Below, piece after piece: positions 42,186 to 57,681 of a stretch of DNA of 64,000 nt. The stretch is from a virus. How positions within the stretch are numbered: the stretch's first letter is position 1; every line of letters starts with the position of its first letter. The notes below the pieces were generated by a model that had not been told where the DNA came from, ran no database searches, and saw only the letters and a list, made by a program, of their open reading frames with translations. Position numbers and translations under genes: made by a program. The stretch spans positions 1-64,000 of IMG/VR virus record IMGVR_UViG_3300023198_000833; one strand, 5' to 3'.

Positions 42186-43226
42186 TTACTCCTTTTTGAT
42201 ACACATGAAATCAGCTCTATCTGCATTCGGCGCTATTGGAAACGCGATGTACGTATCACCGTTTATTGTAAAAGTATCTTCAGCTGCAATTCCACCAAAA
42301 CCAGGTACCGCAAAGCAGCCTTGTAATTCTCCAAAAATATTATTGTTTGGATTTTGCATCATCACGATTAATGGAAAAATCGGATATGATCCATCGAGAT
42401 TTTCTCGTAATGCAGTAGAGAAAATATTATACGGCATATCGTCACCGCCGCTTGTAGAATATGTTGATGAACAGTACGGCCAAACAGTATTCGTAGATCC
42501 ATATACAGTAAGAGATGTTCGATTAGCTGTCTTTATCCATGAAGTCCCTTGTAATATTTTTAAAGATGATCTATCCGAAGCATCCGCATCAACAGCTCCT
42601 GTACAAACCTCTGCACCGTCGCCGTCAGGATTCGGAAAGCCACGATGCTCTGCTTCGACTGAACTGTATCGAGGTGCTCCAGCACCGTCAGAGAAACTTC
42701 CACCTACAACTAAGGGATACGGAAATTGAGTTGGTAAACCGTACGGTAATGCAAAACCTTGATATAACATTTCATACGAAGTTGAGACCTTAGCAATTAC
42801 GACATATCGTCGACCGTTTGCCAAGAACCAGTAATCTATCGGGTCATCCCACATAAGTAACTTGGGCCAACAACCTTGAACACTGCCTGGTTGAAGTTGC
42901 ATAGTCTGTCCAGACACGAAGCCAGTCATTCCGTTTAGCTTCCAATTGTAGTAATCGTCGCCCGCGTGATAGTAGGTTTGAATACCTGTAAAAATCTCAT
43001 CAACTCCAGAAGCACCGGGACCGTTAGCAATCATTTCATAGCCACCGTCTGCATCAAAGTTAGTATCCCATCTTTCAATTGTCCAACCTTCTCCAGATGC
43101 TTGCGGACTTAACTCCGATATTGAAGTATCTCCAGATGCAATTGCTCGAGCTGGGTTACTAATAAAATCTTTAAGACGTAATAGCAACTCTCTGTAATCA
43201 GTAGCCGTTCCTATTTCATAAGCCAT
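42186..43226 (-). CDS. distal tail protein (346 aa)
   Basis: Immediately downstream of the tape measure gene. Confidence 0.35.
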   Translation of the reverse strand: MAYEIGTATDYRELLLRLKDFISNPARAIASGDTSISELSPQASGEGWTIERWDTNFDADGGYEMIANGPGASGVDEIFTGIQTYYHAGDDYYNWKLNGMTGFVSGQTMQLQPGSVQGCWPKLLMWDDPIDYWFLANGRRYVVIAKVSTSYEMLYQGFALPYGLPTQFPYPLVVGGSFSDGAGAPRYSSVEAEHRGFPNPDGDGAEVCTGAVDADASDRSSLKILQGTSWIKTANRTSLTVYGSTNTVWPYCSSTYSTSGGDDMPYNIFSTALRENLDGSYPIFPLIVMMQNPNNNIFGELQGCFAVPGFGGIAAEDTFTINGDTYIAFPIAPNADRADFMCIKKE

Positions 43227-43235
43227 ATTTTATTC

Positions 43236-45725
43236 CTACAATAAGTCGTGTCTTTTCATTGTGTTAAGTATTACTGTATCGCCTTCAGGACTATCCATAG
43301 CTCCAACGATTTCTGTTTTATCGAAAATATTATTGACTGTTACTTTCGGTTCAACATTAATATTAGGTTGTGCAGCTTTCACTCCCAGCTCTCCACCGTT
43401 CGTTCTGGTTAGTGGCATAATCGCTTCAGGTTTCTTTTCTCCAATTAAAGCTGTATTGCCATTTGCAGTCGGTAAGAAGGTTGGGCCCATTGCAACTCCA
43501 CCTGAAGCAAATGGAATAATTTTACCCATTCCGTATAAAGCTCCAGCCGCATGCGCTGGATATATGTTTTGTGTTCCGCCGCCGCCAGTGTCTGTAGGAG
43601 CGCCGCCTATTCCAAGCGCAGACATAATCATTTTAGCAAGCATCATTCGAACTATCATACGCGCTAAGTCAGCTAAGATACTTACAGCTAATGCCTTGAA
43701 ATCCGCCTTACCTGTCATCATAAAATCAGTGATAGCATCAGCTGTTGAATTTAAGGCGTTAACTGCTACGTCAGAAACTCGATTCCAAGTATCGGTTGTT
43801 GTCTCTAACCAACTGTTCAAACTCTGCATACTTGTAGTGACTCGGTTCGCCATCTTTTCTTGAGTTGTTAACTGTCGAGTTAAATCGTCTTCTTCCTGCG
43901 TCGCTTGCGGAACAAATTTAGCTGGCAGATAATTTGAGCCAGAACCTGTAGGAACTGTTATCGGTTTGATATCTGCACCAGCAAACTTATCTTCGATATC
44001 TTGGATCGCTTGGTCCGTTGTTTCAACAAGGAAAGCCATTTGTCGATCGTACTCTTTAGTGTTCTCTTCAATCTCTTTAGTTAAATCTTGAAAATCTTTA
44101 GTGGCTGACATATTTAACTTGTGAATATGATCGCCCAATTCTTCAAAGCCTAAATCTTTACCGAGTACATTTTCCCACCATCCTAAACTTTCTTGTACTG
44201 AAATTAAAAACGACGCCCATTCCAGTTTTAATAAAGCAATTCCTTTTGACCAAGTTTGGCGAATTTTTAATACACCATCTTTAAACGCGAACTTTATAAG
44301 AATCCATGAAGCCATTATTGTTTGAGCTAGTTTTTCCATCCAAATTGCAAACGGCTTTATATTTTCTCGAGCCCAAGCGCTTAAGCGCCAACTTGCAACT
44401 GCAACCCCAATTCCAATTAGAGCTATGCTTAAAGCTGTCGCTGCTCCGGCTGCGGCAAACATAGCTACTTTCAAAAGGATTATACCTTGAAGTAATTTAC
44501 CTACAACAAGCAATGCTGGTCCGACGGCTGCTGTCATTAATGCGAGTTCAATTATAAAGTTTTGAGTGCTATCGTTTAATCCTTCCCACCACGCTAAACC
44601 TTCCTTAATTTTTTCATTAGCCTTTATAAGTGCTGGTGCAAGTTTCTCACCGATAATTCTGGCTGCAGCTACCACGTTGTTCCAAAGTATTTTCATTTGA
44701 GAAGCGAAGCTCTTTAATTGCTTATTTGCGATCTCTTCTGTAATTCCTTGAGCACGATCTAATTCTTTTCGATAGTACGCTATTGCATCGCCCATACCGA
44801 TCAATGGCAAAATCGCTTGCTGTGATCGAGCCTGAAAACCTAACGTGGTTAAAGTAGCTACTTTCATTTCAGTTGACATTGGTCCTAACAAACCTGTTAG
44901 GTCTCTAACGATATCAGCCATTGGTCGAAGATTACGATTAGCGTCAAAGATATCAATCCCAAGATTTTTCCATGCTGCTCGGTTAGATTGAAAACCTTTT
45001 GTCATTAGCCGTAACATTCGACTAAACATATTGCCAGCCTCTTCAGCTTTAATTCCTTGATCGGCGTATGCAGCGAGAACAGCGACGCCCTCTTCAAGTT
45101 CAACATTAAATGCTTTCATTGCTGGGCCAGCTTGCGAAGTTAATGATTTAGAGAATTGTAAAGTTGATGCGTTAGCTAACGTATTCGCTCCAGTAAGAAC
45201 ATCTGAAACGCGTGTCATGTTTATCATATTTTGAGTCGCGTTTTCAACTGTCAAACCTAAAGCACTTTGAGCATCGGTTACAAGATCAGTAGCTAATGCC
45301 ATATCAAACGCACCGGCAACTGCGAATCGTTCAACAGTTGCTAATGCAGCGACGGATTGTTCGGCGGATAAACCCGCTGACGCTAAGAAGAAATAACTGC
45401 GAGCTAATTCAGTCGCCGAGGTAACTGAATTTTTTGAGATTGAGATCGCTGTCTTCTCCATCTCTGCTCGCATCGATTTTGTCGCATCTGACATAATCGC
45501 AGTTGACTTAGTCATCGCATCGTCAAAACTTGAAAAAGCTTTAACTGAGGCTACGCCTATGCCTAAAATTGGAGCCGTCACACGTAACGTTAATGTCCGT
45601 CCGACTTGTTCCATTTTTTTAGCAGTCGATTTCAATCTTGCTTCAGCAGTATTCAATTGCTTAACAAATTGAGAACCGTCTAAACGTAAATGCGCTAACA
45701 AATTACCTAAATCAAGATCTGCCAT
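43236..45725 (-). CDS. tail tape measure protein
   Basis: 829 aa. Ala-rich helical N-terminal region with a hydrophobic transmembrane-like block, and a Gly-rich C-terminus. Follows the two chaperone-like genes. Confidence 0.65.
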   Translation of the reverse strand: MADLDLGNLLAHLRLDGSQFVKQLNTAEARLKSTAKKMEQVGRTLTLRVTAPILGIGVASVKAFSSFDDAMTKSTAIMSDATKSMRAEMEKTAISISKNSVTSATELARSYFFLASAGLSAEQSVAALATVERFAVAGAFDMALATDLVTDAQSALGLTVENATQNMINMTRVSDVLTGANTLANASTLQFSKSLTSQAGPAMKAFNVELEEGVAVLAAYADQGIKAEEAGNMFSRMLRLMTKGFQSNRAAWKNLGIDIFDANRNLRPMADIVRDLTGLLGPMSTEMKVATLTTLGFQARSQQAILPLIGMGDAIAYYRKELDRAQGITEEIANKQLKSFASQMKILWNNVVAAARIIGEKLAPALIKANEKIKEGLAWWEGLNDSTQNFIIELALMTAAVGPALLVVGKLLQGIILLKVAMFAAAGAATALSIALIGIGVAVASWRLSAWARENIKPFAIWMEKLAQTIMASWILIKFAFKDGVLKIRQTWSKGIALLKLEWASFLISVQESLGWWENVLGKDLGFEELGDHIHKLNMSATKDFQDLTKEIEENTKEYDRQMAFLVETTDQAIQDIEDKFAGADIKPITVPTGSGSNYLPAKFVPQATQEEDDLTRQLTTQEKMANRVTTSMQSLNSWLETTTDTWNRVSDVAVNALNSTADAITDFMMTGKADFKALAVSILADLARMIVRMMLAKMIMSALGIGGAPTDTGGGGTQNIYPAHAAGALYGMGKIIPFASGGVAMGPTFLPTANGNTALIGEKKPEAIMPLTRTNGGELGVKAAQPNINVEPKVTVNNIFDKTEIVGAMDSPEGDTVILNTMKRHDLL

Positions 45726-45726: not shown

Positions 45727-46002
45727 TTATTTCCTTTTAAGAATACCTAAACCTTTTAGCCAGAAAGATTTCGATTTATTAAGGTTCGCCTTTCGCTGAT
45801 CTTCTTTACTTATAAACTTAATAACGAAATCCTCTACCTTTACTTTTTCAGGTTTCTTAACGATCGTACGTCGAACTTCAGCTGCAATTTGAGCAAGATA
45901 AAAATACAGTGGATTAAATCTATTAGGCTCTTCATTTAAATACTGAACCCAATTAACAAACTCACTGGATGTTGTCTGCTTCTTAACCAACTGAACCGGC
46001 AA
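45727..46002 (-). CDS. tail assembly chaperone-like protein (91 aa)
   Basis: Position between the major tail and tape measure genes. Confidence 0.3.
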   Translation of the reverse strand: MPVQLVKKQTTSSEFVNWVQYLNEEPNRFNPLYFYLAQIAAEVRRTIVKKPEKVKVEDFVIKFISKEDQRKANLNKSKSFWLKGLGILKRK

Positions 46003-46046: not shown

Positions 46047-46418
46047 CTAAACGTTTTTTGGTTCTTCATTTAAGTCACTCAATTCTTGAGCGGTTTCAAA
46101 TAAAGCTGTTAGTACGTGTGCCGGATACTTTTGAATTGCCTCTCTTCCAACAGGCATATCGTTACTGTCAAATAAACACATTGACACGAGTTCAGCTTGA
46201 AGGCCTTTTAAACTCGACACGTCTTGAACCTTGCCATCTCGCACTGTCATACGTGAACGTACGAACTCAAGCCAAACATCTCGGCCTTCGCCGATTAGCT
46301 CTTTTAGCGTGTAATTCGATTTCAAATCGTCCTCGTCTTTTAAAACTATTTCTCGTGTTCTTAATACTAATGAAAATTCTAATACATCGGCCATTTTTAA
46401 TCCTTTCCACATTTGCAT
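46047..46418 (-). CDS. tail assembly chaperone-like protein (123 aa)
   Basis: Position. Confidence 0.3.
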   Translation of the reverse strand: MQMWKGLKMADVLEFSLVLRTREIVLKDEDDLKSNYTLKELIGEGRDVWLEFVRSRMTVRDGKVQDVSSLKGLQAELVSMCLFDSNDMPVGREAIQKYPAHVLTALFETAQELSDLNEEPKNV

Positions 46419-46521: not shown

Positions 46522-46968
46522 TTACGCGGCTGCGTACACAGGCGCTGTCTCGGCACCAGCAAGATTCTGATTCCCCGGCTGAATCGTAATCGTTGCAGTA
46601 GGCTGCTCACCTTCAACCATATTACCCGGAACGAATTTATCGAGCCATCCAAAAAAGGCAACGGTTGAGCCGTCTGGGAACGTGATTGTGATTAACTGAT
46701 TTGTACTGATCATAGCAACGATGTCATCGTAAAACCTTGGATCGTAGCTTGCGACTAAGGTCATTTCCGTCATCGTGATCAGTTGCTTTGGTGCCATCGT
46801 TCGGTATGTGGAATTTCGCATGGTGGTGGTATCGTTTGCTCCACCTGAGTCCATTCCCGGAGGCGTCACTTCCTTTTCCCAGAAAGTAATCGTCGGCCCC
46901 GTGCCCGAAGGCTGATTGGCAAACTCTATTGTAGTTGGATGTCCGTCGTCAATGCGACTCATAAGCAT
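46522..46968 (-). CDS. putative major tail (tube) protein (148 aa)
   Basis: Position upstream of the chaperones. Beta-rich composition. Confidence 0.4.
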   Translation of the reverse strand: MLMSRIDDGHPTTIEFANQPSGTGPTITFWEKEVTPPGMDSGGANDTTTMRNSTYRTMAPKQLITMTEMTLVASYDPRFYDDIVAMISTNQLITITFPDGSTVAFFGWLDKFVPGNMVEGEQPTATITIQPGNQNLAGAETAPVYAAA

Positions 46969-46977: not shown

Positions 46978-47412
46978 TTAATTTTCTTTTACAGCTATTG
47001 TCCAATTAACGCTAAACATATAGCGTCTTTTTGTTCCGGGCTCGGTACCCATAAAAACAGGCCCGCTCCGTTTAGTAATATTTTGAATTAAGTAATCAGT
47101 AGTATTTAAAGTCTGTATTTCATTATGCACAATATCCATAGCCGTTGTAATTTCATTAATCTTAGACCAGCCCAACGCGAAATCAACGCTTCTAATTCTA
47201 AGTTGAATTCCGGGATGCTGAATAAAATCTCCGCGCATTAATTTTCCATGCTTAATTGGAGACGTATCAAAGATAGCTCCTATATTGTTTATAAGCCCGT
47301 CTGGTAAACTTGAAATATATAACGGCCAACTATCATTACTGACTTCAAACATATATCCCTCAGCGATAATAAATGCTCTTAATATTTCACAAGGAGAATC
47401 TGTTATTATCAT
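46978..47412 (-). CDS. 144-aa protein paralogous to the C-terminal domain of the giant repeat protein (tail terminator/tube-related?)
   Basis: WPLYISSLPDG, QLRIRSVDFALGWSKINEIT and GTKRRYMF match WPVYLTHLPDG, QLRIRSVDYKTGWAKINDIT and GTKRRHMF at the C-terminus of 47409..52409. Confidence 0.4.
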   Translation of the reverse strand: MIITDSPCEILRAFIIAEGYMFEVSNDSWPLYISSLPDGLINNIGAIFDTSPIKHGKLMRGDFIQHPGIQLRIRSVDFALGWSKINEITTAMDIVHNEIQTLNTTDYLIQNITKRSGPVFMGTEPGTKRRYMFSVNWTIAVKEN

Positions 47413-50400
47413 GACGGCCTCAGGGTTAATAAAAAATCTTCAAGGAACATATGTCGACGTTTAGTTCCAGCTTCAGCACCTAAATAATTTACTCCACTTC
47501 TGGAAATATTTTCTATTAGATAAGCATTCGCTCCACCTTTAATAAACAACTCTTGAGTAACGTCGTCTAACGTATCAGTAATATCATTTATTTTTGCCCA
47601 GCCGGTTTTATAATCTACACTTCTGATTCTTAATTGAACTGAGTGATGCGCGATTGTTTGACCAGCCATATGTCTGCCATCGAGTGTTGGCGAATGATCA
47701 TCGACAGCACCTGCATTATTTTCAACATTCATTCCGTCTGGAAGATGCGTCAAATATACTGGCCAACTTTGACTATCTGACGGCAAACTCATTTTACCAA
47801 TGTAGGCTAAGTAAGCTTGCATAATTGCAGCCGGCGAATCTAATAGATAATCAGCGATCTCTCGATCAGTCACCGTAACTACGACTGAATCCGTCAAGCC
47901 AATAGTATCGTAAACGTTGATAAAGAATACAGTACCATTCACCCATTCAGTATAATCTTCGAGTTGTATATTATCGAATACCGAAATATGAAAAACAGGT
48001 AACTGCGTAAGTAAATAATCTGTTACTTGAATATCATCGCCAACTGATATTAAAAACTTATCAAACGCTGTGTTTGAATAATCAGTAACTATTACGTCGT
48101 CATAAACACTGACATATAGTTGGTCTGCTACCTCTGCCTCAATAATTGTAGTGTCAGAAACTTCAATCGAATCGTAAACTTCAATTCGTAAAACAGGAAT
48201 CGAAACATCAGCTACGTCTGTTACTGTGATTGAATCATAAACGCTAATATATAGTTTAGCGGCTGCTTCTGATTCAATGATAATCGTATCGGTTACTTGA
48301 ATCGAATCAAAGACGCTAACTTCATAATGATCAAGCGCAGCACTAATTTCATCTGAAACGATTATGTCGTCATAAGTATTAATTAATAGTACATCAAGTA
48401 AGGTAGTTGTTACATCAGTTACTTGAACTAAATCAAATACATCAATCTCGTATAGATTAAGAGCTAAGTTAACTGACTCAATAACTGTTATGCTGTCGAA
48501 TACGTCAACGTTTAAAATCCCAGCACCTAACAATTGAGCATTAAACGTATCAGATAATCCAATTGTTTCAAAAACATTAATTTCATATAGGTTAAGTGCA
48601 GCGCTAATAGCATCCGATAATCCAATTGAATCGAATACCTCAACTTCGAGTTCGTTAGCTGCATCGCCTAATAGTGCAAGATCGATATAAAAGTTATGCG
48701 TTGGATTGCCAGCTGACGTATGAGCAATCTTTAATCGAATCTTGCCGGCTGAAATATAATCAGGATCGTTAATTAGTACAAAATGATAGTCTTGCTTAGA
48801 TGCTGTCGATGGAAAATCAATCGCATCAGTTGTAACATCTGTCCAATCAAGCGCATTGTAATCCCATTGCTGTAATTTAGTAATATGTGCTGGGTTACCA
48901 TCGTACCAAGCCGCGAGATCTATAACTAAATCTGTATCAGGAACTGCTTCGAATTCTCCAAACTCGAGCTCAATTTCAGAGCCCGGTGTGCCTACTTCCT
49001 CGTTCACAATTAACTCGACACCGTTATTTGAATAAGTATCAACTAACGTGCCAGATTGAATACTCGTTGTAACTGTAATATCTGTAGGCAAGTACCAAGG
49101 AACTACTACCAGCGGAGTTACGTCTTCAGTTACAACGATTGAGTCGAATACGTTAACAAGTAAAATTGGAATCGAAATATCAACTGCATCAGTAACCGTA
49201 ATTGAATCGTAAACATATGCTAACAAAATTGGAATCGAAATATCGACAGCGTCAGTTGCCGCAACTTCATCATAAGCAGCAATTAATAAAATTGGAATCG
49301 AAATATCAACAGCGTCAGTTACTGCAATTGAATCGTAAACATTAATTTCATATAAGTCAAGTGCTAAATCGATCGCCTCAGTAACCGTAATTGAATCAAA
49401 CACATCGATGTTTAAAATTCCAGCACCAACTGCTTGTATATTTAATGCATCTGAAACTCCAATTGAATCGAAAACCGAAGCTAAAAGAACTGGAATTGAA
49501 AGTTCAACCACATCAGATATTTCAATCGTGTCAAAAACTTTGATCGCTAAGAACGGGACTTCAACCGTTTCGGAATCAGTCACACCGATTGAATCGAATA
49601 CATTAACATTAACGAATGGAATATTAACATTAACGTAATCTGTAACTCCAATATTATCAGAGTAAATATCAATATGCTTAATAAGACCTTCAACTTGTGG
49701 AATATTAACGACTGCTAAACCAGCACCGTCCGTTAACGTAACCCAAGCGTTATCGTACTTCCACATCGTATCGTCAGCACCGTTAAGATTCGTCTCATCT
49801 CTTAACCAGTCAACGATCACAGGATCGGTCTTATCAGAAATATCGATTAAAACTAAAGTGTGTCGATACCTGCCAGTGGCAATTGCCCAATTATCATTAA
49901 TAATATCCGGAACATATGCGCCGCTTAATATATCTGCATCTGCGACGTAACCTTCAATGTACATTCCTTCGGGAGCATCTACGTTAATAATATTAAAGCA
50001 TTGTTTTTCAGATGTCGGTAAGGATGGTGACGAACATGCATAAGCTTTACCATTCACTACAATAACGCCGGCGAGACGTTCAAATCTTTTCGTTACGTCG
50101 TCAGTTAAATGCTGACCTAAGCTAATTGTATCTGTTACAGAAACATCAAAAGAAGTTATCCGTTTAGACCATCTACAAGCGGCGAAAATATATCCGTCAT
50201 GATAACCGCAAGATATGATTCCGTTTATATCAGCATCGGGACCGTATGTTGTAATCCAAGTTGGATTTAATGAGTCTGAAATATCATAAGCCGAAAGTCT
50301 TTGACCTTGAAACGCGCATATAAACGCTACTCTTGCTCGACCCCATATATTTCTAACAATCACCGTGCCTGCTGCACCCGTTAATCGATCATTCTCACCG

Positions 50401-52409
50401 GGCCCATCAATTACCGTCGAAACTATTGAAATATTATCGGGGTCTTCAACATCCACCATGTGGATGGCATCTGAATAGATAGTAGTAATAAACGTATGCT
50501 TGCCGTCCGTTTCAACATACTCTATTCCGTTAAGATTAACTGCATCTGGACCGATTTGATCTCTTTCAGTTATCGCTGATATTGTTGAAGAATCCAGCGT
50601 AAAGAAAGAATCTCCAGAAAGGCCAGCGATATGTACAACGTCTCGAAGTACGTCAACCCATCCAGAATCATCAAGATCAACATCAAAGAATGTTCCTGCA
50701 ATTGACATCTGGCCTTGATGTGCAAAGTCTGTTAAGCTAATATCATCATAAACGGAAATCGCTAAGAAAGGAACCTCAACATTTTCAAAATCCGTTAAAG
50801 TAATTGAATCGAATACAGAAACTAAATATAAGTTTAGCGCTACTGTACTCGCATCTGTTACTCCAACTGAATCGAATACATCGATTGCTAAAACATCTGC
50901 TCCCGTTAGTTGTACAGTCTCGACATCAGTTACAGTAATCGAATCGAAGACTGATATTACAAGTACTGGAACTGAAAGCGTAATTGCGTCAGTTACTGCA
51001 ATTGAATCAAATACGTTAATCTCATATAAGTCTAAGGCTAAGTCAACTGCGTCAGTTACTGCAATTGAATCGAATACATTAATCTCATATAAGTCTAAGG
51101 CTAAGTCAACTGCGTCAGTTACTGCAATTGAATCGAATACATTAATTAGTACTATCGGCTCTACTGCAATTTCGATAGTTACAGCTTCTATTACTTGAAC
51201 TGAATCGAATACGTTAACAAGTAAAATCGGAATCGAAATATCAACTACATCGGTGATTCCAACTGAATCAAAAGTATTAATAACTAGAATAGGAATCTCA
51301 AGTATTGGAGTGTCTGATACTCCAATTGAATCAAAAACACTAATACTTAAGCTTGCGGCACCGGCTGCAACCTTAAACGCCACCATCGCATATGCTTCGT
51401 AGAACCACATATCTTTATTGGCGTCTTGACACATCATCCCCATTTGTTGGGCGTTAAATAATGCCTGTGACCAAGCTGTCGGTGTTGCTTCCCAAGTAGA
51501 TGTTTCGTATTCTGCAACCCATGTAGGGTCTTTAGGGTCGTCTAAAGCTGTCATGCCAGACCGGCCAGAAGCATCACGGCCATATATATTATACTCATCA
51601 ACAGAACCGCCGCCTGCAGTTTCATAATAATATAGGAAATTCACCGCTTCAATCGTATCGGAACCACCAATACCAGAAAGATTGCCGGAGCCACAATCAT
51701 CTAAACCAACCGAATAATACTGTGCTACACCATCGGCTTCTGCCCAGTTGTAATCTGTAATGTTCGGCGGGTCTTGGTCTATCTCTGTATATACAGCAGG
51801 CGTGTTGTCTGAATCCTGCCAATCTGACCCTGTTCCTGTGTCTTGGTCTGTACCTTCCGCTACTGGACGGGCGGCTAAAACTCGGATATCTCCGAGGTCA
51901 TCAGTTGAACTTGTATCATCAAAGGATACATCATCCATATTGATGGTTGTACTTGAATTAGAACTTTGACCTATACTTACAGATGAAGCAAAATCCGCCC
52001 CTTGAGCAACTGAGCATATTTCAACCCCATCCATATATAATTTCGTCGTTGAGCCATTAGTAGCAAGGCATAAGCGTTGATGCCCAGATGTAACAACTGT
52101 TTCTGTGGACGTATCAGTAGAACCGTTTACATCAAGTGTCAAAGTATCATCTGTATTTAATGTAACCTTATCTCCACCCGCCGCCCAAAGAATATCTGCT
52201 GCTGTTGAAAGACTTGCACTTGGTCTGATAGACAGATTTATTCTGTTCGGTGCGGACGCTACATTTTTAGTCACATAACCAGTATTACCTGATAGAAGTC
52301 TATAATTTCCAGTGCGGGGAGAAAGACCTGACACTGAAATTGCACCGCTCGACGCATCCCAAGCATCTGTCCCGCCAGCTTCAAAACCATCATGGAAAGT
52401 TAATGCCAT
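47409..52409 (-). CDS. giant repeat-containing virion protein (1666 aa) with dozens of 21-aa xVFDSIxVTDxxxxxxPxLxI repeats
   Basis: Two repeat blocks with DNA-level tandem 63-bp units, e.g. near-identical copies at about 50987-51049 and 51050-51112. The C-terminal 150 aa are homologous to the next gene. Confidence 0.6.
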   Translation of the reverse strand: MALTFHDGFEAGGTDAWDASSGAISVSGLSPRTGNYRLLSGNTGYVTKNVASAPNRINLSIRPSASLSTAADILWAAGGDKVTLNTDDTLTLDVNGSTDTSTETVVTSGHQRLCLATNGSTTKLYMDGVEICSVAQGADFASSVSIGQSSNSSTTINMDDVSFDDTSSTDDLGDIRVLAARPVAEGTDQDTGTGSDWQDSDNTPAVYTEIDQDPPNITDYNWAEADGVAQYYSVGLDDCGSGNLSGIGGSDTIEAVNFLYYYETAGGGSVDEYNIYGRDASGRSGMTALDDPKDPTWVAEYETSTWEATPTAWSQALFNAQQMGMMCQDANKDMWFYEAYAMVAFKVAAGAASLSISVFDSIGVSDTPILEIPILVINTFDSVGITDVVDISIPILLVNVFDSVQVIEAVTIEIAVEPIVLINVFDSIAVTDAVDLALDLYEINVFDSIAVTDAVDLALDLYEINVFDSIAVTDAITLSVPVLVISVFDSITVTDVETVQLTGADVLAIDVFDSVGVTDASTVALNLYLVSVFDSITLTDFENVEVPFLAISVYDDISLTDFAHQGQMSIAGTFFDVDLDDSGWVDVLRDVVHIAGLSGDSFFTLDSSTISAITERDQIGPDAVNLNGIEYVETDGKHTFITTIYSDAIHMVDVEDPDNISIVSTVIDGPGENDRLTGAAGTVIVRNIWGRARVAFICAFQGQRLSAYDISDSLNPTWITTYGPDADINGIISCGYHDGYIFAACRWSKRITSFDVSVTDTISLGQHLTDDVTKRFERLAGVIVVNGKAYACSSPSLPTSEKQCFNIINVDAPEGMYIEGYVADADILSGAYVPDIINDNWAIATGRYRHTLVLIDISDKTDPVIVDWLRDETNLNGADDTMWKYDNAWVTLTDGAGLAVVNIPQVEGLIKHIDIYSDNIGVTDYVNVNIPFVNVNVFDSIGVTDSETVEVPFLAIKVFDTIEISDVVELSIPVLLASVFDSIGVSDALNIQAVGAGILNIDVFDSITVTEAIDLALDLYEINVYDSIAVTDAVDISIPILLIAAYDEVAATDAVDISIPILLAYVYDSITVTDAVDISIPILLVNVFDSIVVTEDVTPLVVVPWYLPTDITVTTSIQSGTLVDTYSNNGVELIVNEEVGTPGSEIELEFGEFEAVPDTDLVIDLAAWYDGNPAHITKLQQWDYNALDWTDVTTDAIDFPSTASKQDYHFVLINDPDYISAGKIRLKIAHTSAGNPTHNFYIDLALLGDAANELEVEVFDSIGLSDAISAALNLYEINVFETIGLSDTFNAQLLGAGILNVDVFDSITVIESVNLALNLYEIDVFDLVQVTDVTTTLLDVLLINTYDDIIVSDEISAALDHYEVSVFDSIQVTDTIIIESEAAAKLYISVYDSITVTDVADVSIPVLRIEVYDSIEVSDTTIIEAEVADQLYVSVYDDVIVTDYSNTAFDKFLISVGDDIQVTDYLLTQLPVFHISVFDNIQLEDYTEWVNGTVFFINVYDTIGLTDSVVVTVTDREIADYLLDSPAAIMQAYLAYIGKMSLPSDSQSWPVYLTHLPDGMNVENNAGAVDDHSPTLDGRHMAGQTIAHHSVQLRIRSVDYKTGWAKINDITDTLDDVTQELFIKGGANAYLIENISRSGVNYLGAEAGTKRRHMFLEDFLLTLRPS

Positions 52410-52410: not shown

Positions 52411-52842
52411 TTACCACCATTCCCCTGTAATAGGGCCAGCCTGTTTATTCTGAATCCTAATATTAAAACTTAAAGGACTGGCGGTGTAAATATGAACGGC
52501 AATATATGTTTTGATAGCTATGAAATCGCTACCGTCTACGTATTCATACGGCAGCAATACAGGCGGGACTTCTAATGCTCTATCGTCTGGTTCTAAATCA
52601 GCTAACGGAATGATTGTTGAAAATGCCGGTTGGAGTTGCAACCATTCGTTGAACTTATCTTCTTTCTTTTTGAGATTACCTGATACACCGGCAAGGCGAC
52701 CTTGGATATTCAGCTTCGATTCGACAAAAGACGCTCCATCCGTCAAAGCAATATCAATCCCATCCTCAAAATTTATGCTTCTTACTGGCGGCATATTGGA
52801 TACTCCCTGCAAATCTGTGGACGAGTTGTGTATATAACGCAA
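52411..52842 (-). CDS. hypothetical protein (143 aa)
   Basis: ORF only. Confidence 0.3.
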   Translation of the reverse strand: MRYIHNSSTDLQGVSNMPPVRSINFEDGIDIALTDGASFVESKLNIQGRLAGVSGNLKKKEDKFNEWLQLQPAFSTIIPLADLEPDDRALEVPPVLLPYEYVDGSDFIAIKTYIAVHIYTASPLSFNIRIQNKQAGPITGEWW

Positions 52843-53060
52843 TCTTTGTTAGGAGCAATAAACGGACAGAGGCCACCTTTGTGTTTTTTCCGTATTATAA
52901 ATGGCATTTTCTTTTCAATCATATACGCTCTTGTTTTTGGATTACCAACATTCTGTATCGGAGTCACGACTTGCCAAAGTCTCGGCTCTCGATTCATATC
53001 TTCAAGAGTTAAGGTAACTCCAGTCCCACGACAACACTTTCCGCATTTTTTACACGGCAT
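52782..53060 (-). CDS. Cys-rich metal-binding protein (YkgJ/UPF0153-like)
   Basis: CKKCGKCC ... CPFIAPNKDC ... CREYPIC. Confidence 0.4.
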   Translation of the reverse strand: MPCKKCGKCCRGTGVTLTLEDMNREPRLWQVVTPIQNVGNPKTRAYMIEKKMPFIIRKKHKGGLCPFIAPNKDCVIYTTRPQICREYPICRQ

Positions 53061-53069
53061 CTTTACTCC

Positions 53070-53867
53070 TTATGCCGGATATTGTCTTCCAGTACTTAAA
53101 TCAATATGTTTGCAAAAGATGTTTGTATCGCATAGAAACGGATATTTCTTTCGACCGATTTTCGGCCAGCCCGCTCGAGCAATAACTTTTTCTTTAATTA
53201 CGCGATGACACCATGCTAAGTCTGACGTACCGCTACCGGATGCGAATGATTTTGTTTCTTGATCAAAGTACATCTTAGCTGGAGTTTCAAATATCTTCTT
53301 TGTTACTTTTTTACCTAACGTCTCATACGGCTCACTTTCATCCCACATGATTTTAATAATCTTAGAATGAATTAATAGAAAGCCGGTCGGTACGCCGTCA
53401 GCCCATACTTTCTGACCAACTTTAAAATTATCGTAACAACCATTACCTAAACCGCGATATAAAATCGGCTCAGTATAGTTGCCCTTGATATAATATAGTC
53501 CACTTACAACCGGCACACTTTCATCTCGCATATACTGATTCAATTGTAGTAATGCGTCGTGCGGTGGGACTACGTCATCTTCCCAAAGTAAAAGCCATTC
53601 ATAGCCTTTTGCAACAACATCTTCACAGCCTAAATTTTGAGCATCTGCTACAAGGTAATGCATGGGCACTGTGCAGCCGATACCGAGTGAGGCGCTTGAT
53701 GCAGACCAGTTAGGCGGGGTCACTTGCCCGTATCGAGCCATGACCCATTCCATACGAACTTGTCCAAGAGTTGGAGTTACAATCAACAACCGTACGCGTG
53801 GGTTGCCATTTTTGCCGCTCTTAAGAATTGTCGTATACTCTGACATTTTAGGAGTTCGTTTTTTCAT
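53070..53867 (-). CDS. putative GT-A-like glycosyltransferase (265 aa)
   Basis: LLLWEDDVVPPHD DxD-like segment. Weak. Confidence 0.3.
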   Translation of the reverse strand: MKKRTPKMSEYTTILKSGKNGNPRVRLLIVTPTLGQVRMEWVMARYGQVTPPNWSASSASLGIGCTVPMHYLVADAQNLGCEDVVAKGYEWLLLWEDDVVPPHDALLQLNQYMRDESVPVVSGLYYIKGNYTEPILYRGLGNGCYDNFKVGQKVWADGVPTGFLLIHSKIIKIMWDESEPYETLGKKVTKKIFETPAKMYFDQETKSFASGSGTSDLAWCHRVIKEKVIARAGWPKIGRKKYPFLCDTNIFCKHIDLSTGRQYPA

Positions 53868-54136
53868 GATTTAGATTTATCCCTCGTAATGATTTCGACA
53901 TTACACACATCAGTTAATTTAACTGCACTGCCGGGTATATTATTATTTTTTGCCGGCATTACAACTAACTTCGCGTGCGTCGTAACTAATACTCCTTTCG
54001 TGTGCGTCGGATCAGGATTTTTTAAACACGTATTAATATGTTCATCTAAATCGGCTTCGTCTTTACAACGAACTTTACACATTCCACAAACCCATACTTC
54101 GAGTCCCATTCTAATTCTCCGTAACTGCGTCGTCAT
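53864..54136 (-). CDS. small zinc-ribbon protein (90 aa)
   Basis: CGMCKVRC ... H..C Cys cluster. Confidence 0.3.
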   Translation of the reverse strand: MTTQLRRIRMGLEVWVCGMCKVRCKDEADLDEHINTCLKNPDPTHTKGVLVTTHAKLVVMPAKNNNIPGSAVKLTDVCNVEIITRDKSKS

Positions 54137-54668
54137 CTTTAACTTTTTTAACTTCGGGCAATATTGGATTACCCTTCTTATCTTTTCTCGGTTCCATAAT
54201 TAATTCAAGGCAACCGTTCATACAGAAAATGTTCCGAACTATTTTCCAAGGTAACGGTTTTCTGTAACTGCACGAATGCCATAACTGATAGTCAGGATCG
54301 AAAAATTGAAATGTTGCTTCGTTAGGACACATATAATGAGCTGGATGAGCAGCTTCTAAAAAACTGCCAGCATATGGGCAAGATAATAAAAGCTGTCCAT
54401 CGTGTCTCATGATTCGCCATACTTCATCCATTAACTCGAATCTGTATTTTGGTTCAATATGTTCCCAAACGTGAGACATCAAAACTTGAAAACAGATATC
54501 ATCCGGAATCGGTTTCCACGGCATCTTTTGAATATCCCACACAATATCGACATTAGGATGATTCATTATATCCATGCCGATGAAACGCGGCTGTTTAAAC
54601 AATCCACAGCCGACATCAAGCTTAATGCCTTTCGCTTTTTGAAATAAATGTTTATGTGTTTTTGACAT
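54111..54668 (-). CDS. class I SAM-dependent methyltransferase
   Basis: KLDVGCGLFKQPRFIGMDI motif I. Confidence 0.5.
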   Translation of the reverse strand: MSKTHKHLFQKAKGIKLDVGCGLFKQPRFIGMDIMNHPNVDIVWDIQKMPWKPIPDDICFQVLMSHVWEHIEPKYRFELMDEVWRIMRHDGQLLLSCPYAGSFLEAAHPAHYMCPNEATFQFFDPDYQLWHSCSYRKPLPWKIVRNIFCMNGCLELIMEPRKDKKGNPILPEVKKVKDDDAVTEN

Positions 54669-54694
54669 TGTACTAATCGTTCTCCGTAATTTGA

Positions 54695-55261
54695 TTATGT
54701 AGTCGAGTACCTCAGCTCGTAGGTACAGTTCACATCTTGATCAGTCGTTATAGCTGAAGATGCAAACGTGTTACCTGCAATAATCGTTCCAGTTGACGCT
54801 GCAAAGATACCAATATTTGAAAGTGTGGCCGCATCCAAAGTACCGTCAAAAGATACAGTCATACGTGCGGTTAAACTTGCAATCACAGCGCTTTGAGCAA
54901 AAGCTGAATAATATTTTGACAGGCTCTGATGTAATGCAACTGCATCACTGGCTGGAACAGTGCCGCTGCCTAACAAAATGCCAGCTGCTTGTACAGACCC
55001 AGCGCCGATCGGCGCCGCGACAATACAACTGTTCAAACCGTAATTAGTGATCTGATTTTCCATGAAGCCAGTATCACCAACTATCTTACGCGTTTTCCTA
55101 TCTACAAGTTGAAGGCGCGTAAAACCTTTAACTGCGACTCTACTTTTTGTCTTCATTTTTACTCCTAAATTAAATACCTGCGTAAACCGCAACAATTCGT
55201 AACATCTCTTTACGTTTCTCTCGAGCTGGGCGTTCCAAGTATTTAGCTTGCTGATTTTCAC
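54695..55261 (-). CDS. virion structural protein (188 aa, Gly/Ala/Ser/Thr-rich)
   Basis: Composition and position. Confidence 0.3.
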   Translation of the reverse strand: MKISKLNTWNAQLERNVKRCYELLRFTQVFNLGVKMKTKSRVAVKGFTRLQLVDRKTRKIVGDTGFMENQITNYGLNSCIVAAPIGAGSVQAAGILLGSGTVPASDAVALHQSLSKYYSAFAQSAVIASLTARMTVSFDGTLDAATLSNIGIFAASTGTIIAGNTFASSAITTDQDVNCTYELRYSTT

Positions 55262-55619
55262 CGCGGTTAAACATTCCGCCTTCAGCAGTACGTGCTCGGG
55301 ACGATGCGTTCAAAATCTCATCCCGATGTTTCTCATTAAATTTACGTCCATGGGCTTTTGTTAAATCTTCGTGAACATAGACTGCATACTCTGCTGTGAA
55401 CCCAACAACAACATCTGTACTAAGTCCAGAACCGAATCGCCGAGTGAAAGCGGTATCTTTTAAGTTTCCTGTTTGAACAGGAACCATTTTCATACTTTCA
55501 CGTTGCAGAAATAAGCCAGCATAGGTTAGGCCGACTCCAGCTCGATCGGCGATTTGATTCTTGGCCTTAGACAGTCGTTCCAGTAATTCAGGAATGCCTT
55601 TTAATTCAAGCATTTTCAT
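55170..55619 (-). CDS. head-tail joining region protein (149 aa)
   Basis: Position. The start is probably downstream of the listed one, which overlaps the next gene. Confidence 0.3.
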   Translation of the reverse strand: MKMLELKGIPELLERLSKAKNQIADRAGVGLTYAGLFLQRESMKMVPVQTGNLKDTAFTRRFGSGLSTDVVVGFTAEYAVYVHEDLTKAHGRKFNEKHRDEILNASSRARTAEGGMFNRGENQQAKYLERPAREKRKEMLRIVAVYAGI

Positions 55620-56588: not shown

Positions 56589-57041
56589 CTATCCTTTCGG
56601 CGGTAATCCACGTAGACCTCGGATGACGTTTTCGAGCACCTTATTATCGATACCCGCAATATCCAGTCCTTTTATAAGTAAAGGTTCTAGATGCTTCCAA
56701 TCTTCAGGGTAATCTTTCTTTAAGGCGTCGATTGCATCAACCATTGAACCTGCGACAGTGTTAGCTACCTCAGCTTTATTTTGAGCTTCAACGTATCGCG
56801 GTTTTAATTTTCGCCAAACGCCTAACGCCGCTAAAAGAGCTGAACCTGCAATTGTTACACTGGGTCCAAACAGAGGTGTTAAAAGCGTAAGCACTCCTGC
56901 TGTACCTTCGACTCCAGCCTCTACTTGAATCGCAGTATTCGGATCAACGGAATAAGTCTTTTCGCCGGACTCATCTGTTGCAACATTACAGCTAACTAAT
57001 AGCAGCAACGGTAAGACGGTTATTAGTAATAACTTTCGCAT
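56589..57041 (-). CDS. predicted lipoprotein
   Basis: MRKLLLITVLPLLLLVSC signal peptide with a lipobox (LVSC). The start is trimmed to this Met to avoid overlap. Confidence 0.45.
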   Translation of the reverse strand: MRKLLLITVLPLLLLVSCNVATDESGEKTYSVDPNTAIQVEAGVEGTAGVLTLLTPLFGPSVTIAGSALLAALGVWRKLKPRYVEAQNKAEVANTVAGSMVDAIDALKKDYPEDWKHLEPLLIKGLDIAGIDNKVLENVIRGLRGLPPKG

Positions 57042-57681
57042 ACTTATTCCTTTCTTGCCAAAAGGCGTCAAAGTCTAATTTTGTAAAAAGATTTAAACTA
57101 CTTTTCTTTGTCACGTTTAAAATTCGACAGTTAGGAAATTTTTTCAAATCTTTTCTTACATGAATAAACGCTGACACCATTCGAGCATAAACATCAGAGC
57201 CCGGTTTATCAATTAGGTGGTTATGCCAATTAGGCTTTCCATTGTTATCAAGGAACATGTCAAAACCTAAAAGATAAATCGTTGACGCCCCTAACATTAA
57301 AGCTAAGTTAATCGCCGCGGCTCCCGTGTTAGCATTATAGCCTAAGGTCTCGATTCCTAATCCTCTAACCTTACGAGGAATATACTTTAACCAAGGCTCT
57401 TTACGATTACGTAACTGATCATCGTTTGTTACGATCGGATTTGGAAATTTTGAAAGTTCTTCATAGAAGCCCCACCGCGGTTCATCGCTATCAAATATAA
57501 ATCCTTTATCACAAAATATGCAAATGTTGCATACTTTAGGACCTAATCTGAAAGCATTATTACAACCGATAGTATTCTCGTGCTCCAGTACAGACCAATC
57601 AAAATTTCGAAGAGAGGTACCGCCACCTATAATAAAGCAATCTTGATCTTGCCAAATTTTTTCAGGTTTCCATTGAGGCAT
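56992..57681 (-). CDS. second CstII/GT42-like (MptE/DUF115 clan) putative glycosyltransferase
   Basis: CFIIGGGTSLRNFDW and GAAAINLALMLGASTIYLLGFDMF...NWHNH parallel 35545..36192. Confidence 0.5.
   Translation of the reverse strand: MPQWKPEKIWQDQDCFIIGGGTSLRNFDWSVLEHENTIGCNNAFRLGPKVCNICIFCDKGFIFDSDEPRWGFYEELSKFPNPIVTNDDQLRNRKEPWLKYIPRKVRGLGIETLGYNANTGAAAINLALMLGASTIYLLGFDMFLDNNGKPNWHNHLIDKPGSDVYARMVSAFIHVRKDLKKFPNCRILNVTKKSSLNLFTKLDFDAFWQERNKYAKVITNNRLTVAAIS

What the first reader, a model, noticed from the sequence alone, without database searches (positions are those of the whole stretch)
46978..52409. 1666-aa protein built from dozens of 21-aa / 63-bp tandem repeats whose C-terminal domain duplicates the neighbouring 144-aa gene
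Two long arrays of xVFDSIxVTDxxxxxxPxLxI units are encoded by near-identical 63-bp DNA repeats, visible as exact duplicates around 50.99-51.11 kb. Such repeats make the gene prone to expansion, contraction and recombination, and suggest a beta-solenoid or fibre. The last 150 residues are clearly homologous to the separate downstream protein 46978..47412 (shared WP.Y...LPDG, QLRIRSVD..GW.KIN.IT, GTKRR.MF). The giant protein could therefore be a decorated variant of a tail-terminator/tube-related subunit, as in Ig-like decorations of tail tubes. Alternatively the pair arose by gene duplication and fusion.
Basis: seen in the sequence. Interest (0 to 1): 0.6.

Follow-up and report, generated by a model that had tools for sequence, protein, structure and literature searches.

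The report
Giant neck fibre fused to tail terminator
An uncultivated sediment phage encodes a 1666-residue protein with lectin-like domains and 31 short beta-strand repeats built onto a second copy of its tail-terminator protein, which probably plants long sugar-binding fibres at the head-tail junction.

Summary
The ORF (47409..52409, minus strand, 1666 aa) and its homology to the next gene are real. Its last 145 residues are 43% identical to the 144-aa protein (E 6e-33). The 144-aa protein models confidently (pLDDT 92.9) as a tail-terminator fold (lambda gpU, T5 p142, Douge/Bxb1 necks). The repeats were described too generously. There are three arrays, not two (10+9+12 units of 21 aa). Mean DNA identity between units is only 49%, and only one 63-bp unit is freshly duplicated. 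The N-terminal 350 residues form ConA/LamG-like jelly rolls. A related phage (L003/L004) has the same arrangement: repeats joined to a terminator domain, then a plain terminator, the putative tube gene, chaperones and tape measure. The join aligns without gaps over 266 aa, so the fusion is genuine and old. A relative of the N-terminal module is fused instead to a head-closure (Hc1) neck protein. Another locus carries a Ser/Pro stalk on two tandem terminator domains. About 22% of the 150 best family representatives carry extensions. Best reading: a neck-anchored, lectin-tipped accessory adhesion fibre, functionally like the lactococcal neck passage structure but anchored differently. Stoichiometry, repeat fold and ligand are unresolved.

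The parts
47409..52409 (-). Gene for the 1666-aa giant protein (stop codon 47409..47411)
   Evidence: ORF list. An identical 1666-aa protein, P0001, is on record from a 68.8-kb JGI contig.
51885..52409 (-). N1, aa 1-175: first ConA/LamG-like jelly-roll of the N-terminal module
   Evidence: AF2 all-beta, pLDDT about 80-94 from residue 40. Foldseek hits to lectin-like jelly rolls: BoNT Hc, V. cholerae neuraminidase lectin domains, GH16, CBMs. LamG-like phage proteins in BFVD. Relative P0198 carries PF13385.
51354..51884 (-). N2, aa 176-352: second beta domain, the most conserved part of the protein
   Evidence: 49-60% identical to P0002-P0006, and 82-83% in L011-L013. 50 invariant columns among six proteins. 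In BFVD, whole-module structural matches to phage proteins of about 306-365 aa (most unnamed; one from Achromobacter phage AchV4 labelled 'virion structural protein'), TM 0.56-0.68 on target length.
50685..51344 (-). Repeat array 1, aa 356-575, 10 units of 21 (24) aa
   Evidence: lag-21 identity 0.41
50985..51146 (.). The only recent DNA-level tandem duplication (63-bp period, 2.6 copies, 97%); units 424 and 445 are identical
49671..50684 (-). Middle globular domain, aa 576-913, unassigned (possibly a beta-propeller)
   Evidence: No homologue among the 36 hits. Only a sub-threshold LVIVD hint, E 0.12. P0005 has a DUF5074-like domain after its own N-terminal module and first repeats.
49089..49670 (-). 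Repeat array 2, aa 914-1107, 9 units (contains the 77%-identical TRF array 49162..49342)
   Evidence: lag-21 identity 0.40
48642..49088 (-). Third globular domain, aa 1108-1256, unassigned
   Evidence: 27% identity, E 2.7e-7, to the C-terminal domain of P0006. No Pfam or PHROG hit.
47853..48641 (-). Repeat array 3, aa 1257-1519, 12 units. The last ~6 units are orthologous to those of P0053.
   Evidence: Gapless 266-aa alignment with P0053, 45% identity, E 6e-82.
47412..47852 (-). C-terminal tail-terminator-like domain, aa 1520-1666: the presumed virion anchor
   Evidence: 43% identity to the 144-aa protein. Family HMM E 2e-53. Keeps all 12 near-invariant family residues. Sub-threshold PF12691 hit.
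46978..47412 (-). Plain 144-aa tail-terminator paralogue
   Evidence: AF2 pLDDT 92.9. Foldseek top hits are tail terminators of Douge, Bxb1, SaPI1, T5 p142, lambda gpU and T4 gp15. Its homologues carry PF12691.
46522..46968 (-). 148-aa putative tail tube protein (assigned by position only)
   Evidence: Lies between the terminator and the chaperone-like genes 46047..46418 and 45727..46002 (phrog_344, phrog_337) and the tape measure gene 43236..45725. It follows the terminator-domain gene in all four distinct homologous contexts (L003/L004, L005, L006, L010). No family or PDB hit of its own.
52411..52842 (-). 143-aa protein (here called p143), the constant upstream partner of the N-module gene
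   Evidence: A homologue lies directly upstream of the N-module gene in 11 distinct contigs (13 fetched loci). No family hit.
52782..55261 (-). Co-travelling cassette genes: CxxCxxCC protein (52782..53060), 265-aa unknown (53070..53867), 90-aa (53864..54136), methyltransferase-like (54111..54668), 188-aa (54695..55261)
   Evidence: PF03692 E 1e-10 (significant) and PF13489 E 0.003 (below the curated cutoff). Homologues at E 1e-67 to 1e-142 next to N-module genes in L002/L016 and L009. Their link to the fibre is inferred from co-occurrence only.

Best explanation
The 1666-aa protein is a paralogue of the phage's tail terminator, the ring protein that caps the head-proximal end of the tail tube and docks it to the head. 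It carries a 1520-residue N-terminal extension.

Proposed mechanism. The C-terminal terminator-fold domain is built into the neck, either mixed with the plain 144-aa copy in one ring or as an adjacent ring. The extension projects outward as a long, segmented arm. From anchor to tip it runs: 12 repeats, a globular domain, 9 repeats, a ~340-aa globular domain, 10 repeats, and a two-domain ConA/LamG-like tip. The tip, and possibly the inner globular domains, bind surface glycans weakly and reversibly. This would give the virion an accessory first-contact adhesion device at the neck. The ordinary lambda/GTA-like tail tip would still carry out committed adsorption.

Shown: the gene is real; the homology; the terminator fold of the shared domain; the repeat architecture; the lectin-like fold of the tip; conservation of the fused-plus-plain gene pair.

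Inferred: incorporation into the neck; outward display; glycan binding; an accessory role.
For: Anchor domain.
- Homology between the C-terminal domain and the 144-aa protein: 43% identity, E 6e-33.
- The 144-aa model has pLDDT 92.9. Its best PDB matches are tail terminators in solved necks, TM 0.5-0.7: Douge 8zdj, Bxb1 9d94, SaPI1, T5 p142 8bcp, lambda gpU 3fz2/8iyd, T4 gp15.
- Homologues carry PF12691.
- All 12 residues that are at least 90% conserved across 95 family members are kept in the giant protein's domain.
- Gene order runs head-completion genes, the cassette, the giant gene, the plain terminator, the putative tube, chaperones, tape measure.

The fusion is real and conserved.
- P0053 (318 aa) occurs in two independent assemblies. 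It aligns without gaps to the last six repeats, the junction and the terminator domain (45% identity, E 6e-82).
- It is followed by a plain terminator, the tube homologue, chaperones and the tape measure.
- Plain copies cluster together (56-59% identity), and the two decorated copies pair with each other.

Neck ring proteins serve as fibre anchors elsewhere.
- P0004 shares the N-terminal module (56% identity in N2). It ends in a head-closure Hc1 domain (phrog_161, E 1.4e-8, covering 109 of 120 profile positions). It sits between head-completion genes and the tube gene.
- L005/L006 encode a Ser/Pro-rich stalk followed by two tandem terminator domains.
- L010 has the N-module fibre gene immediately upstream of an N-extended terminator.
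- 24 of the 150 best family representatives have N-terminal extensions and 9 have C-terminal ones. These include FN3-like, LamG, beta-helix and LRR domains.

Display is sterically plausible. Terminator helices, including the N-terminal one, lie at the ring periphery in R4C (PMC10276861).

Tip.
- ConA/LamG-like jelly rolls.
- P0198 carries PF13385.

The phage has a separate, normal tail-tip module: phrog_687, 1082, 778 and 1101.
Against: - No virion, proteomic or binding data exist. The phage is uncultivated and has no relative among 50,697 phage records.
- Neither terminator copy reaches the PF12691 gathering score (16.2 and 15.6 bits against 23.8).
- The family profile finds no PDB sequence, so the terminator assignment rests on fold and synteny.
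- The tube identity of the 148-aa gene rests on synteny only.
- Most proteins that share the N-terminal module have no recognisable neck domain. Their conserved end is the N-terminus, and in classical fibres the conserved N-terminus is the anchor. The polarity assumed here is therefore established only for this protein and P0004.
- The repeat fold and its oligomeric state are unknown (pLDDT 44-72).
- Six 177-kDa arms on one ring may be sterically demanding. That may be why a plain copy is kept, but the stoichiometry was not tested.
Confidence: 0.6

Rival explanations
1. The giant protein is a neck-anchored structure as above, but it is not a host adhesin. It might act as a collar or skirt that stabilises or shields the head-tail joint. 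Or it might tether virions to sediment particles, exopolymers or biofilm matrix (sub-diffusive 'sticking') rather than to the host cell.
For: - The R4C adaptor's Ig-like domain is argued to stabilise the neck rather than to adsorb (PMC10276861).
- Lactococcal NPS carbohydrate-binding modules bind hosts only weakly, and the TP901-1 collar is non-essential (PMC6669499).
- Relatives come from sulfate-methane transition zone and marine sediment metagenomes.
- Lectin-like folds do not specify a ligand.
Against: An arm of more than 1500 residues with three spacer arrays and at least four globular domains is far more than stabilisation needs. The modular swapping of stalks and domains among relatives is the pattern seen in host-range determinants.
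Confidence: 0.2
2. The polarity is the opposite. The conserved N-terminal module, perhaps through the always-adjacent 143-aa protein, is the virion attachment end, as in classical tail fibres. On this view the C-terminal terminator-like domain is not part of the neck ring. It would be a relic, or it would act during assembly, for example by competing with the plain terminator to time tail termination or head joining.
For: - The N-terminal module is the conserved end, while stalks and C-termini vary.
- The 143-aa protein is encoded directly upstream in 11 distinct contigs.
- Stand-alone N-terminal modules of 372-536 aa exist.
- Most family members lack any neck domain.
Against: - The C-terminal domain keeps every near-invariant family residue and scores E 2e-53 against the family HMM, so it is not decaying.
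- The repeat-terminator junction is conserved without gaps in a second lineage that has no N-terminal module at all (P0053).
- P0004 ends in a different neck-ring domain.
- L005 fuses a stalk to two terminator domains.
- The N-terminal module occurs in both siphovirus-like and podovirus-like genome backbones, which argues against a backbone-specific docking role.
Confidence: 0.1
3. The main significance of the repeats is genetic instability. On this view the arrays form a contingency locus whose unit number changes frequently by slippage or recombination, tuning fibre length within populations.
For: One perfect 126-bp tandem duplication (units 424 and 445) and a 77%-identical three-unit stretch show that unit duplication has occurred. 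Relatives differ greatly in stalk length and type.
Against: - Mean identity between units is 49% in DNA, and most pairs are too diverged for homologous slippage.
- The last six units are conserved one-to-one with P0053 at 45% protein identity, so unit number there has been stable over long divergence.
- P0053 is identical in two independent assemblies.
- No population data are available.
Confidence: 0.12
4. The long ORF is an artefact: a separate fibre gene and a separate terminator gene joined by an assembly chimera, a lost stop codon or a frameshift error.
For: In L010 the N-module fibre (995 aa) and an N-extended terminator (328 aa) are separate adjacent genes. The window's protein is known from a single contig.
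Against: - The repeat array runs in frame straight into the terminator domain.
- The same junction is found, without gaps, in P0053 from two independent assemblies.
- L005 and L006, also independent assemblies, likewise carry stalk-terminator fusions.
- A separate plain terminator gene is still present downstream.
- GC content shows no break across the gene.
Confidence: 0.03

Closest known systems
Tail terminator proteins of long-tailed phages (lambda gpU, T5 p142, SPP1 gp17, R4C gp18; Pfam PF12691 Phage_tail_terminator_6)
   Same: The shared domain has the same fold: a beta-sheet core with two helices. Its gene sits immediately upstream of the putative tube gene. Relatives hit PF12691.
   Different: Known terminators are about 130-210 aa with at most small insertions or sheath-binding domains (PMC11784142). 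Here one paralogue carries 1520 extra residues made of repeats and lectin-like domains, and a plain paralogue is kept beside it.
Neck passage structure (collar and whiskers) of lactococcal siphophages (TP901-1, 936 group)
   Same: An accessory fibre at the head-tail junction, tipped with carbohydrate-binding modules, highly modular between phages, and non-essential in TP901-1 (PMC6669499). This is the closest match in how the giant protein would work.
   Different: The NPS anchors through an N-terminal BppU-like beta-sandwich predicted to form an 18-mer ring. Its stalk is a trimeric coiled coil and its binding module is C-terminal. Here the anchor is a C-terminal terminator-fold domain, the stalk is made of 21-aa beta repeats, and the lectin-like module is N-terminal. 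There is no sequence relationship.
Pvc16 cap protein of Photorhabdus virulence cassettes (duplicated terminator fold)
   Same: A precedent for two terminator-fold domains acting together at the tube end (PMC11784142). This is comparable to the tandem-domain protein of L005/L006 and to the paralogue pair here.
   Different: It belongs to a contractile injection system, and the second domain is discussed among additions that serve the sheath. It has no fibre or lectin-like extension.
Ig-like or CBM decorations of tail tube and neck proteins (lambda gpV C-terminal domain, lactococcal TpeX, the Ig-like domain of the R4C adaptor)
   Same: Accessory binding or stabilising domains grafted onto core virion ring proteins.
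   Different: Those are single small domains present in many copies along the tube, or in 12 copies on the adaptor. Here a multi-domain arm of about 177 kDa sits on a terminator paralogue, and the gene in the tube position is undecorated.
Phage T4 fibritin whiskers (own knowledge, not tested here)
   Same: Fibres that emanate from the neck.
   Different: Fibritin is a separate trimeric coiled-coil protein that docks non-covalently to the neck. It is not a fusion to a neck ring protein and has no lectin-like tip.

Membership tests
Tail terminator protein (gpU/p142-type fold; Pfam PF12691) | Sequence match to PF12691 above the gathering score | tested here: inconclusive
   Giant protein 16.2 bits and 144-aa protein 15.6 bits, against a cutoff of 23.8. 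However, 7 of 13 homologues of the 144-aa protein carry a precomputed PF12691 hit.
Tail terminator protein (gpU/p142-type fold; Pfam PF12691) | Terminator fold: antiparallel beta-sheet core with two alpha-helices | tested here: met
   The AF2 model of the 144-aa protein has pLDDT 92.9 with element order H-E-E-E-H-E-E-E-E. Foldseek top hits are terminators in solved necks, probability 1.0, TM 0.5-0.7. For the giant protein's domain this is inferred from 43% identity and retention of all 12 near-invariant residues.
Tail terminator protein (gpU/p142-type fold; Pfam PF12691) | Gene located between head-completion genes and the tube gene, upstream of chaperones and tape measure | tested here: met
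   The same order is seen in L003/L004 and L010. The tube identity of the 148-aa gene is itself positional.
Tail terminator protein (gpU/p142-type fold; Pfam PF12691) | Forms a hexameric ring that caps the tail tube and docks the head | not testable with these tools
   Needs multimer modelling, reconstitution or cryo-EM.
Lactococcal neck passage structure (NPS) | N-terminal BppU-like beta-sandwich ring anchor followed by a trimeric coiled coil | tested here: not met
   No Pfam or PHROG hit of that kind. The N-terminus is a ConA-like jelly roll and the stalk is all-beta. This protein is an analogue, not a member.
Lactococcal neck passage structure (NPS) | Carbohydrate-binding module at the free end of the fibre | tested here: inconclusive
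   A lectin/CBM-like fold is present at the presumed distal (N-terminal) end. No binding was tested.
Decorated tail tube proteins (gpV-Ig, TpeX) | The decoration is attached to the major tail tube protein | tested here: not met
   The anchor domain matches terminators rather than the gene in the tube position. That separate 148-aa gene carries no extension.
ConA-like lectin / LamG superfamily (PF13385) for the N-terminal module | Jelly-roll beta-sandwich of the ConA/LamG type | tested here: met
   Fold level only. AF2 pLDDT is 75-94 over most of residues 40-350. Foldseek probability is 1.0 to BoNT Hc, neuraminidase lectin domains, GH16 and CBMs. No Pfam hit on this sequence, but relative P0198 has PF13385.
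Known repeat or solenoid families in Pfam | A profile match for the 21-aa unit | tested here: not met
   No Pfam or PHROG family covers the arrays. The same unit type occurs in about 30 other large metagenomic proteins.

The most novel reading that the evidence does not exclude
The giant gene may be one form of a mobile 'neck-fibre cassette'. The cassette would comprise the 143-aa partner, a CxxCxxCC protein, methyltransferase-like and possibly glycosyltransferase-like genes, and a lectin-tipped N-terminal module with an interchangeable repeat stalk. It moves between siphovirus-like and podovirus-like backbones. It would become attached to the virion by fusing in frame to whichever neck ring protein is at hand: a terminator here, in L003 and in L005, and a head-closure Hc1 protein in L001. 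Keeping a plain paralogue (or a tandem two-domain protein, as in L005) would then create a mixed or double terminator ring. That ring would set the fibre copy number below six, a way of breaking symmetry at the neck that has not been described.
Probability: 0.25. Interest if true: 0.75.

Novelty: new variant of a known kind. Interest (0 to 1): 0.55.

Why it matters
Neck fibres and decorated ring proteins are known. Tail terminators, however, are treated as small, invariant capping proteins. If the terminator ring is a recurrent display platform, several things follow.

- About 22% of the best 150 family representatives carry extra domains, and this protein is by far the largest. Annotation pipelines would then be systematically mislabelling or truncating a class of adhesins. 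P0051 was called from an internal Met, with spurious antisense genes called over its stalk.
- Covalent fusion to a neck ring protein offers a simple, engineerable way to add binding modules to siphophage virions without touching the tail tip.
- The conserved pairing of a decorated and a plain paralogue raises a question that can be tested directly: how do phages set the copy number of bulky appendages on a six-fold ring?
- The co-travelling modification-type genes hint at fibre maturation or glycosylation in sediment phages.

Tried and rejected
- No match in 50,697 phage records. Tried: DNA (megablast) search of the region, and tblastn of the 144-aa protein, the N-terminal module, the 143-aa partner and the 148-aa protein.
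- The terminator family profile found no PDB sequence. The 148-aa protein found none either.
- NCBIfam gave nothing significant for nine proteins of the region.
The single C-terminal domain found no relative in IMG/VR.
It was rebuilt from permitted proteins.
- I tested whether L001 has a plain Hc1 paralogue beside P0004. None was detectable.
- I tested whether the N-terminal extension of the L010 terminator is related to the N-terminal domains of neck proteins in L008 and L009. No hit, so the idea was dropped.
- No reverse transcriptase turned up in the 10 largest remaining ORFs scanned (not an exhaustive check), and the repeats do not look like diversity-generating-retroelement targets. I did not pursue that idea.
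- There is no compositional break across the gene or cassette, so composition gives no evidence of recent foreign origin.
- Literature searches for terminator-anchored neck fibres returned nothing specific.


Full report
**Setting.** The window is most of a ~69-kb genome of an uncultivated siphovirus-type phage, with essentially all sizeable ORFs, including every gene discussed here, on the minus strand. It encodes the following:
- a terminase fragment, portal, MuF-like protein, protease/scaffold, decoration protein and major capsid protein;
- an HK97-gp10-like neck protein at 55170..55619;
- a tape measure protein at 43236..45725 (PF10145 plus PF09718), with chaperone-like genes just upstream;
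- a lambda/GTA-like tail-tip module (phrog_687 twice, 1082, 778, 1101);
- replication genes, including DNA polymerase A, a primase zinc-finger protein and an SNF2 helicase.

Searches with the finding region (DNA) and with four of its proteins found no relative among 50,697 deposited phage genomes. Related contigs come from sulfate-methane transition zone and marine sediment metagenomes.

**Checking the observation.**
- The ORF 47409..52409 (-) is intact and encodes 1666 aa. Its stop overlaps the start of the 144-aa ORF 46978..47412.
- Residues 1522-1664 align to the 144-aa protein at 43% identity, E 6e-33.
- The 21-residue periodicity is highly significant. Lag-21 self-identity is 17.2% against 7.3 +/- 0.63% in shuffles (z 15.7) and is confined to the arrays.
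- There are three arrays, not two, of 10, 9 and 12 units. They are separated by two globular domains of about 340 and 150 aa.
- The consensus unit is [N/S]-V-[F/Y]-D-S-I-x-V-T-D-a-V-x-h-x-h-P-h-L-x-I. Position 4 is Asp in 30 of 31 units, and position 10 is Asp or Glu in all 31.
- The claim of near-identical DNA repeats holds only locally. Mean identity between units is 49% in DNA. Only units 424 and 445 are identical. Tandem Repeats Finder sees just 50985..51146 (97%) and 49162..49342 (77%).

**The shared domain.**
- Both copies hit PF12691 (Phage_tail_terminator_6) only below threshold. Seven of thirteen close homologues of the 144-aa protein carry that Pfam family.
- An AlphaFold2 model of the 144-aa protein, built on a 95-sequence alignment, has pLDDT 92.9.
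- Its best PDB matches are overwhelmingly tail terminators in solved necks: Douge, Bxb1, SaPI1, T5 p142, lambda gpU, T4 gp15 and the R2 pyocin collar.
- The family profile finds no PDB entry by sequence.
- The giant protein's C-terminal domain keeps all 12 residues that are at least 90% conserved across the family. It scores E 2e-53 against the family HMM. It is therefore a functional-looking terminator domain, not a relic.
- The gene order supports the assignment: giant gene, plain terminator, 148-aa gene in the tube position, chaperones, tape measure.
- The 148-aa 'tube' protein has no hit of its own and is named from position only.

**The fusion is real and old.**
- An exhaustive profile search found 2391 family representatives, mostly 145-180 aa.
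- One of them, P0053 (318 aa), consists of six or seven of the same 21-aa units joined to a terminator domain. It aligns without a single gap to the last six repeats, the junction and the terminator domain of the giant protein (45% identity, E 6e-82).
- P0053 occurs in two independent assemblies. It is followed by a plain 147-aa terminator, a homologue of the 148-aa gene, chaperones and the tape measure.
- In a small neighbour-joining tree the plain copies of the two phages cluster (56-59% identity). The two decorated copies pair with each other (46%). The duplication therefore predates the split of these lineages, and both copies have been kept.
- The giant protein's domain is no closer to its neighbour (43%) than to terminators of other phages (45-49%).

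**Wider pattern.**
- Among the 150 best family representatives, 24 have N-terminal extensions of 80 aa or more, and 9 have C-terminal ones.
- The added parts include FN3-like domains, LamG, a beta-helix, LRR and a discoidin-like domain. In P0075 and P0092 a similar short repeat lies C-terminal to the terminator domain.
- The next largest protein is 773 aa, so the window's protein is an extreme case.
- In L005/L006 one open frame runs from a Ser/Pro-rich low-complexity stalk of at least 390 aa into two tandem terminator domains joined by about 17 residues. A homologue of the 148-aa gene follows. The database protein P0051 was called from an internal Met, and antisense genes were called over the stalk.
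- In L010 a 995-aa N-module fibre gene abuts a 328-aa terminator with two extra ~90-aa domains. That locus has no plain copy.

**The rest of the giant protein.**
- Residues 1-352 form a module shared with P0002-P0006. The second half (N2) is 49-60% identical to them, and 82-83% identical in L011-L013.
- AlphaFold2 on a 13-sequence alignment gives two all-beta domains at pLDDT 75-94 over most of residues 40-350.
- Foldseek matches lectin-like ConA/LamG jelly rolls: BoNT receptor-binding domains, the lectin domains of V. cholerae neuraminidase, GH16 and CBMs.
- In BFVD the whole two-domain module matches phage proteins of about 306-365 aa, most of them unnamed. One, from Achromobacter phage AchV4, is labelled a 'virion structural protein'.
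- Stand-alone modules of 372-536 aa also exist.
- After the module, relatives carry quite different stalks: VFDS-type units, GQSDIS units, TGTCDAQS units, or hundreds of residues of SASxSA.
- Crucially, P0004 shares the module but ends in a head-closure Hc1 domain (phrog_161, E 1.4e-8, near full length). It sits between head-completion genes and the tube gene. The same kind of fibre is thus fused to a different neck ring protein there.
- The repeat arrays themselves model only as low-confidence beta hairpins (pLDDT 44-72). Their fold and oligomeric state are open.

**Mechanism.** I conclude that the protein is a terminator paralogue whose C-terminal domain is built into the neck and whose N-terminal 1520 residues project as a segmented arm with a lectin-like tip.
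- Outward display is plausible because terminator helices, including the N-terminal one, lie at the ring periphery in R4C (PMC10276861), and because this family tolerates N-terminal additions widely.
- The closest functional analogue is the lactococcal neck passage structure. That is a collar with fibres ending in carbohydrate-binding modules, which bind hosts weakly; the TP901-1 collar is non-essential (PMC6669499).
- The NPS, however, anchors through an N-terminal BppU-like ring and has a coiled-coil stalk. This protein is therefore an analogue, not a member.
- The T5 tail paper notes that some terminators carry additional domains and that Pvc16 has a duplicated terminator fold (PMC11784142). 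My literature searches found no description of terminator-anchored fibres.
- I could not decide whether the two paralogues form a mixed ring or stacked rings. The tandem-domain protein of L005 shows only that the two domains are neighbours.

**Rivals.**
- An assembly or frameshift artefact is very unlikely, given the conserved gapless junction in independent assemblies.
- The opposite polarity (N-terminal module as anchor) is disfavoured. The C-terminal domain is intact, P0053 has no N-terminal module, and P0004 ends in Hc1. It cannot be excluded for the many relatives that lack a neck domain.
- A stabilising or environment-sticking role instead of host adhesion remains open.
- Repeat-number instability is supported only at one locus.

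**Cassette.**
- A homologue of the 143-aa protein at 52411..52842 lies directly upstream of the N-module gene in 11 distinct contigs (13 fetched loci).
- The CxxCxxCC protein is present in seven loci (six distinct contigs).
- The 265-aa, methyltransferase-like and 188-aa genes recur at E 1e-67 to 1e-142 in the podovirus-like L002/L016 and in L009.
- This suggests a mobile multi-gene unit whose enzymes may mature the fibre. That is inference from co-occurrence only.

**Verdict.** The feature is a new and extreme variant of two known themes, neck fibres and decorated virion ring proteins. It belongs to a previously undescribed but recurrent class of extended tail terminators.

Noticed in passing
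window 52411..55261 (-); loci L001/L007, L002/L016, L009, L010, L011-L013, L015, L017-L019: A conserved gene set travels with the N-module giant gene. The 143-aa protein (ending GPITGEWW) lies directly upstream in 11 distinct contigs (13 fetched loci). A CxxCxxCC (PF03692) protein is present in seven loci (six distinct contigs). The 265-aa unknown, the methyltransferase-like protein and the 188-aa protein recur at E 1e-67 to 1e-142 in a podovirus-like backbone (L002/L016, with an SU10 adaptor) and in L009.
   Followed up: partly
window 56992..57681, 35545..36192, 34024..34779 (-): Two sialyltransferase-like genes (phrog_4603) and a GtrB-like glycosyltransferase (phrog_2456) lie inside or just after the structural module. 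The 265-aa cassette protein has a sub-threshold rhamnosyltransferase-like region (E 0.03). This may point to virion or fibre glycosylation.
   Followed up: no
L005 1..2091 (+) and L006: One open frame encodes a Ser/Pro-rich low-complexity stalk of at least 390 aa followed by two tandem terminator domains. The database gene P0051 starts at an internal Met. Three minus-strand genes called over the stalk are probably spurious.
   Followed up: partly
L013 5295..8885 (+): The closest relative of the N-terminal module (82% identity in N2) has a stalk made almost entirely of long runs of SASxSA Ser/Ala repeats, a mucin-like linker. Two glycosyltransferase-like ORFs (501 and 339 aa) and a third, unassigned 237-aa ORF precede it.
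   Followed up: no
L003 73..1587 and L008 7437..9185: A beta-helix-like protein of ~500-580 aa, ending YLWFYLAEYED..YIDVDIKPV, sits directly upstream of P0053 in L003 and of the N-module giant gene in L008. It may be another neck-associated partner.
   Followed up: no
window 41172..42182 and 42186..43226 (-): Two adjacent paralogous phrog_687 genes lie directly downstream of the tape measure gene. This is a second tandem paralogue pair in the tail module.
   Followed up: no
window 29934..31070 (-): A radical SAM/SPASM-domain protein is encoded between the structural and replication modules. Its function here is unknown.
   Followed up: no
L020 (contig DAOVMB010000004.1): The only hit in 185,579 reference genomes is an 18.5-kb phage-like contig binned into a Sedimentisphaerales (Planctomycetota) MAG. 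It carries a LamG-like gene, a CxxCxxCC gene and a 698-aa N-module gene. This is a weak host hint and could be a binning artefact.
   Followed up: partly
window 54695..55261 vs 55170..55619 (-): The listed 188-aa ORF (GTG start) overlaps the HK97-gp10-like gene by 92 nt. Homologues in L009 and L002 are 158-160 aa, so the true start is probably further downstream.
   Followed up: no
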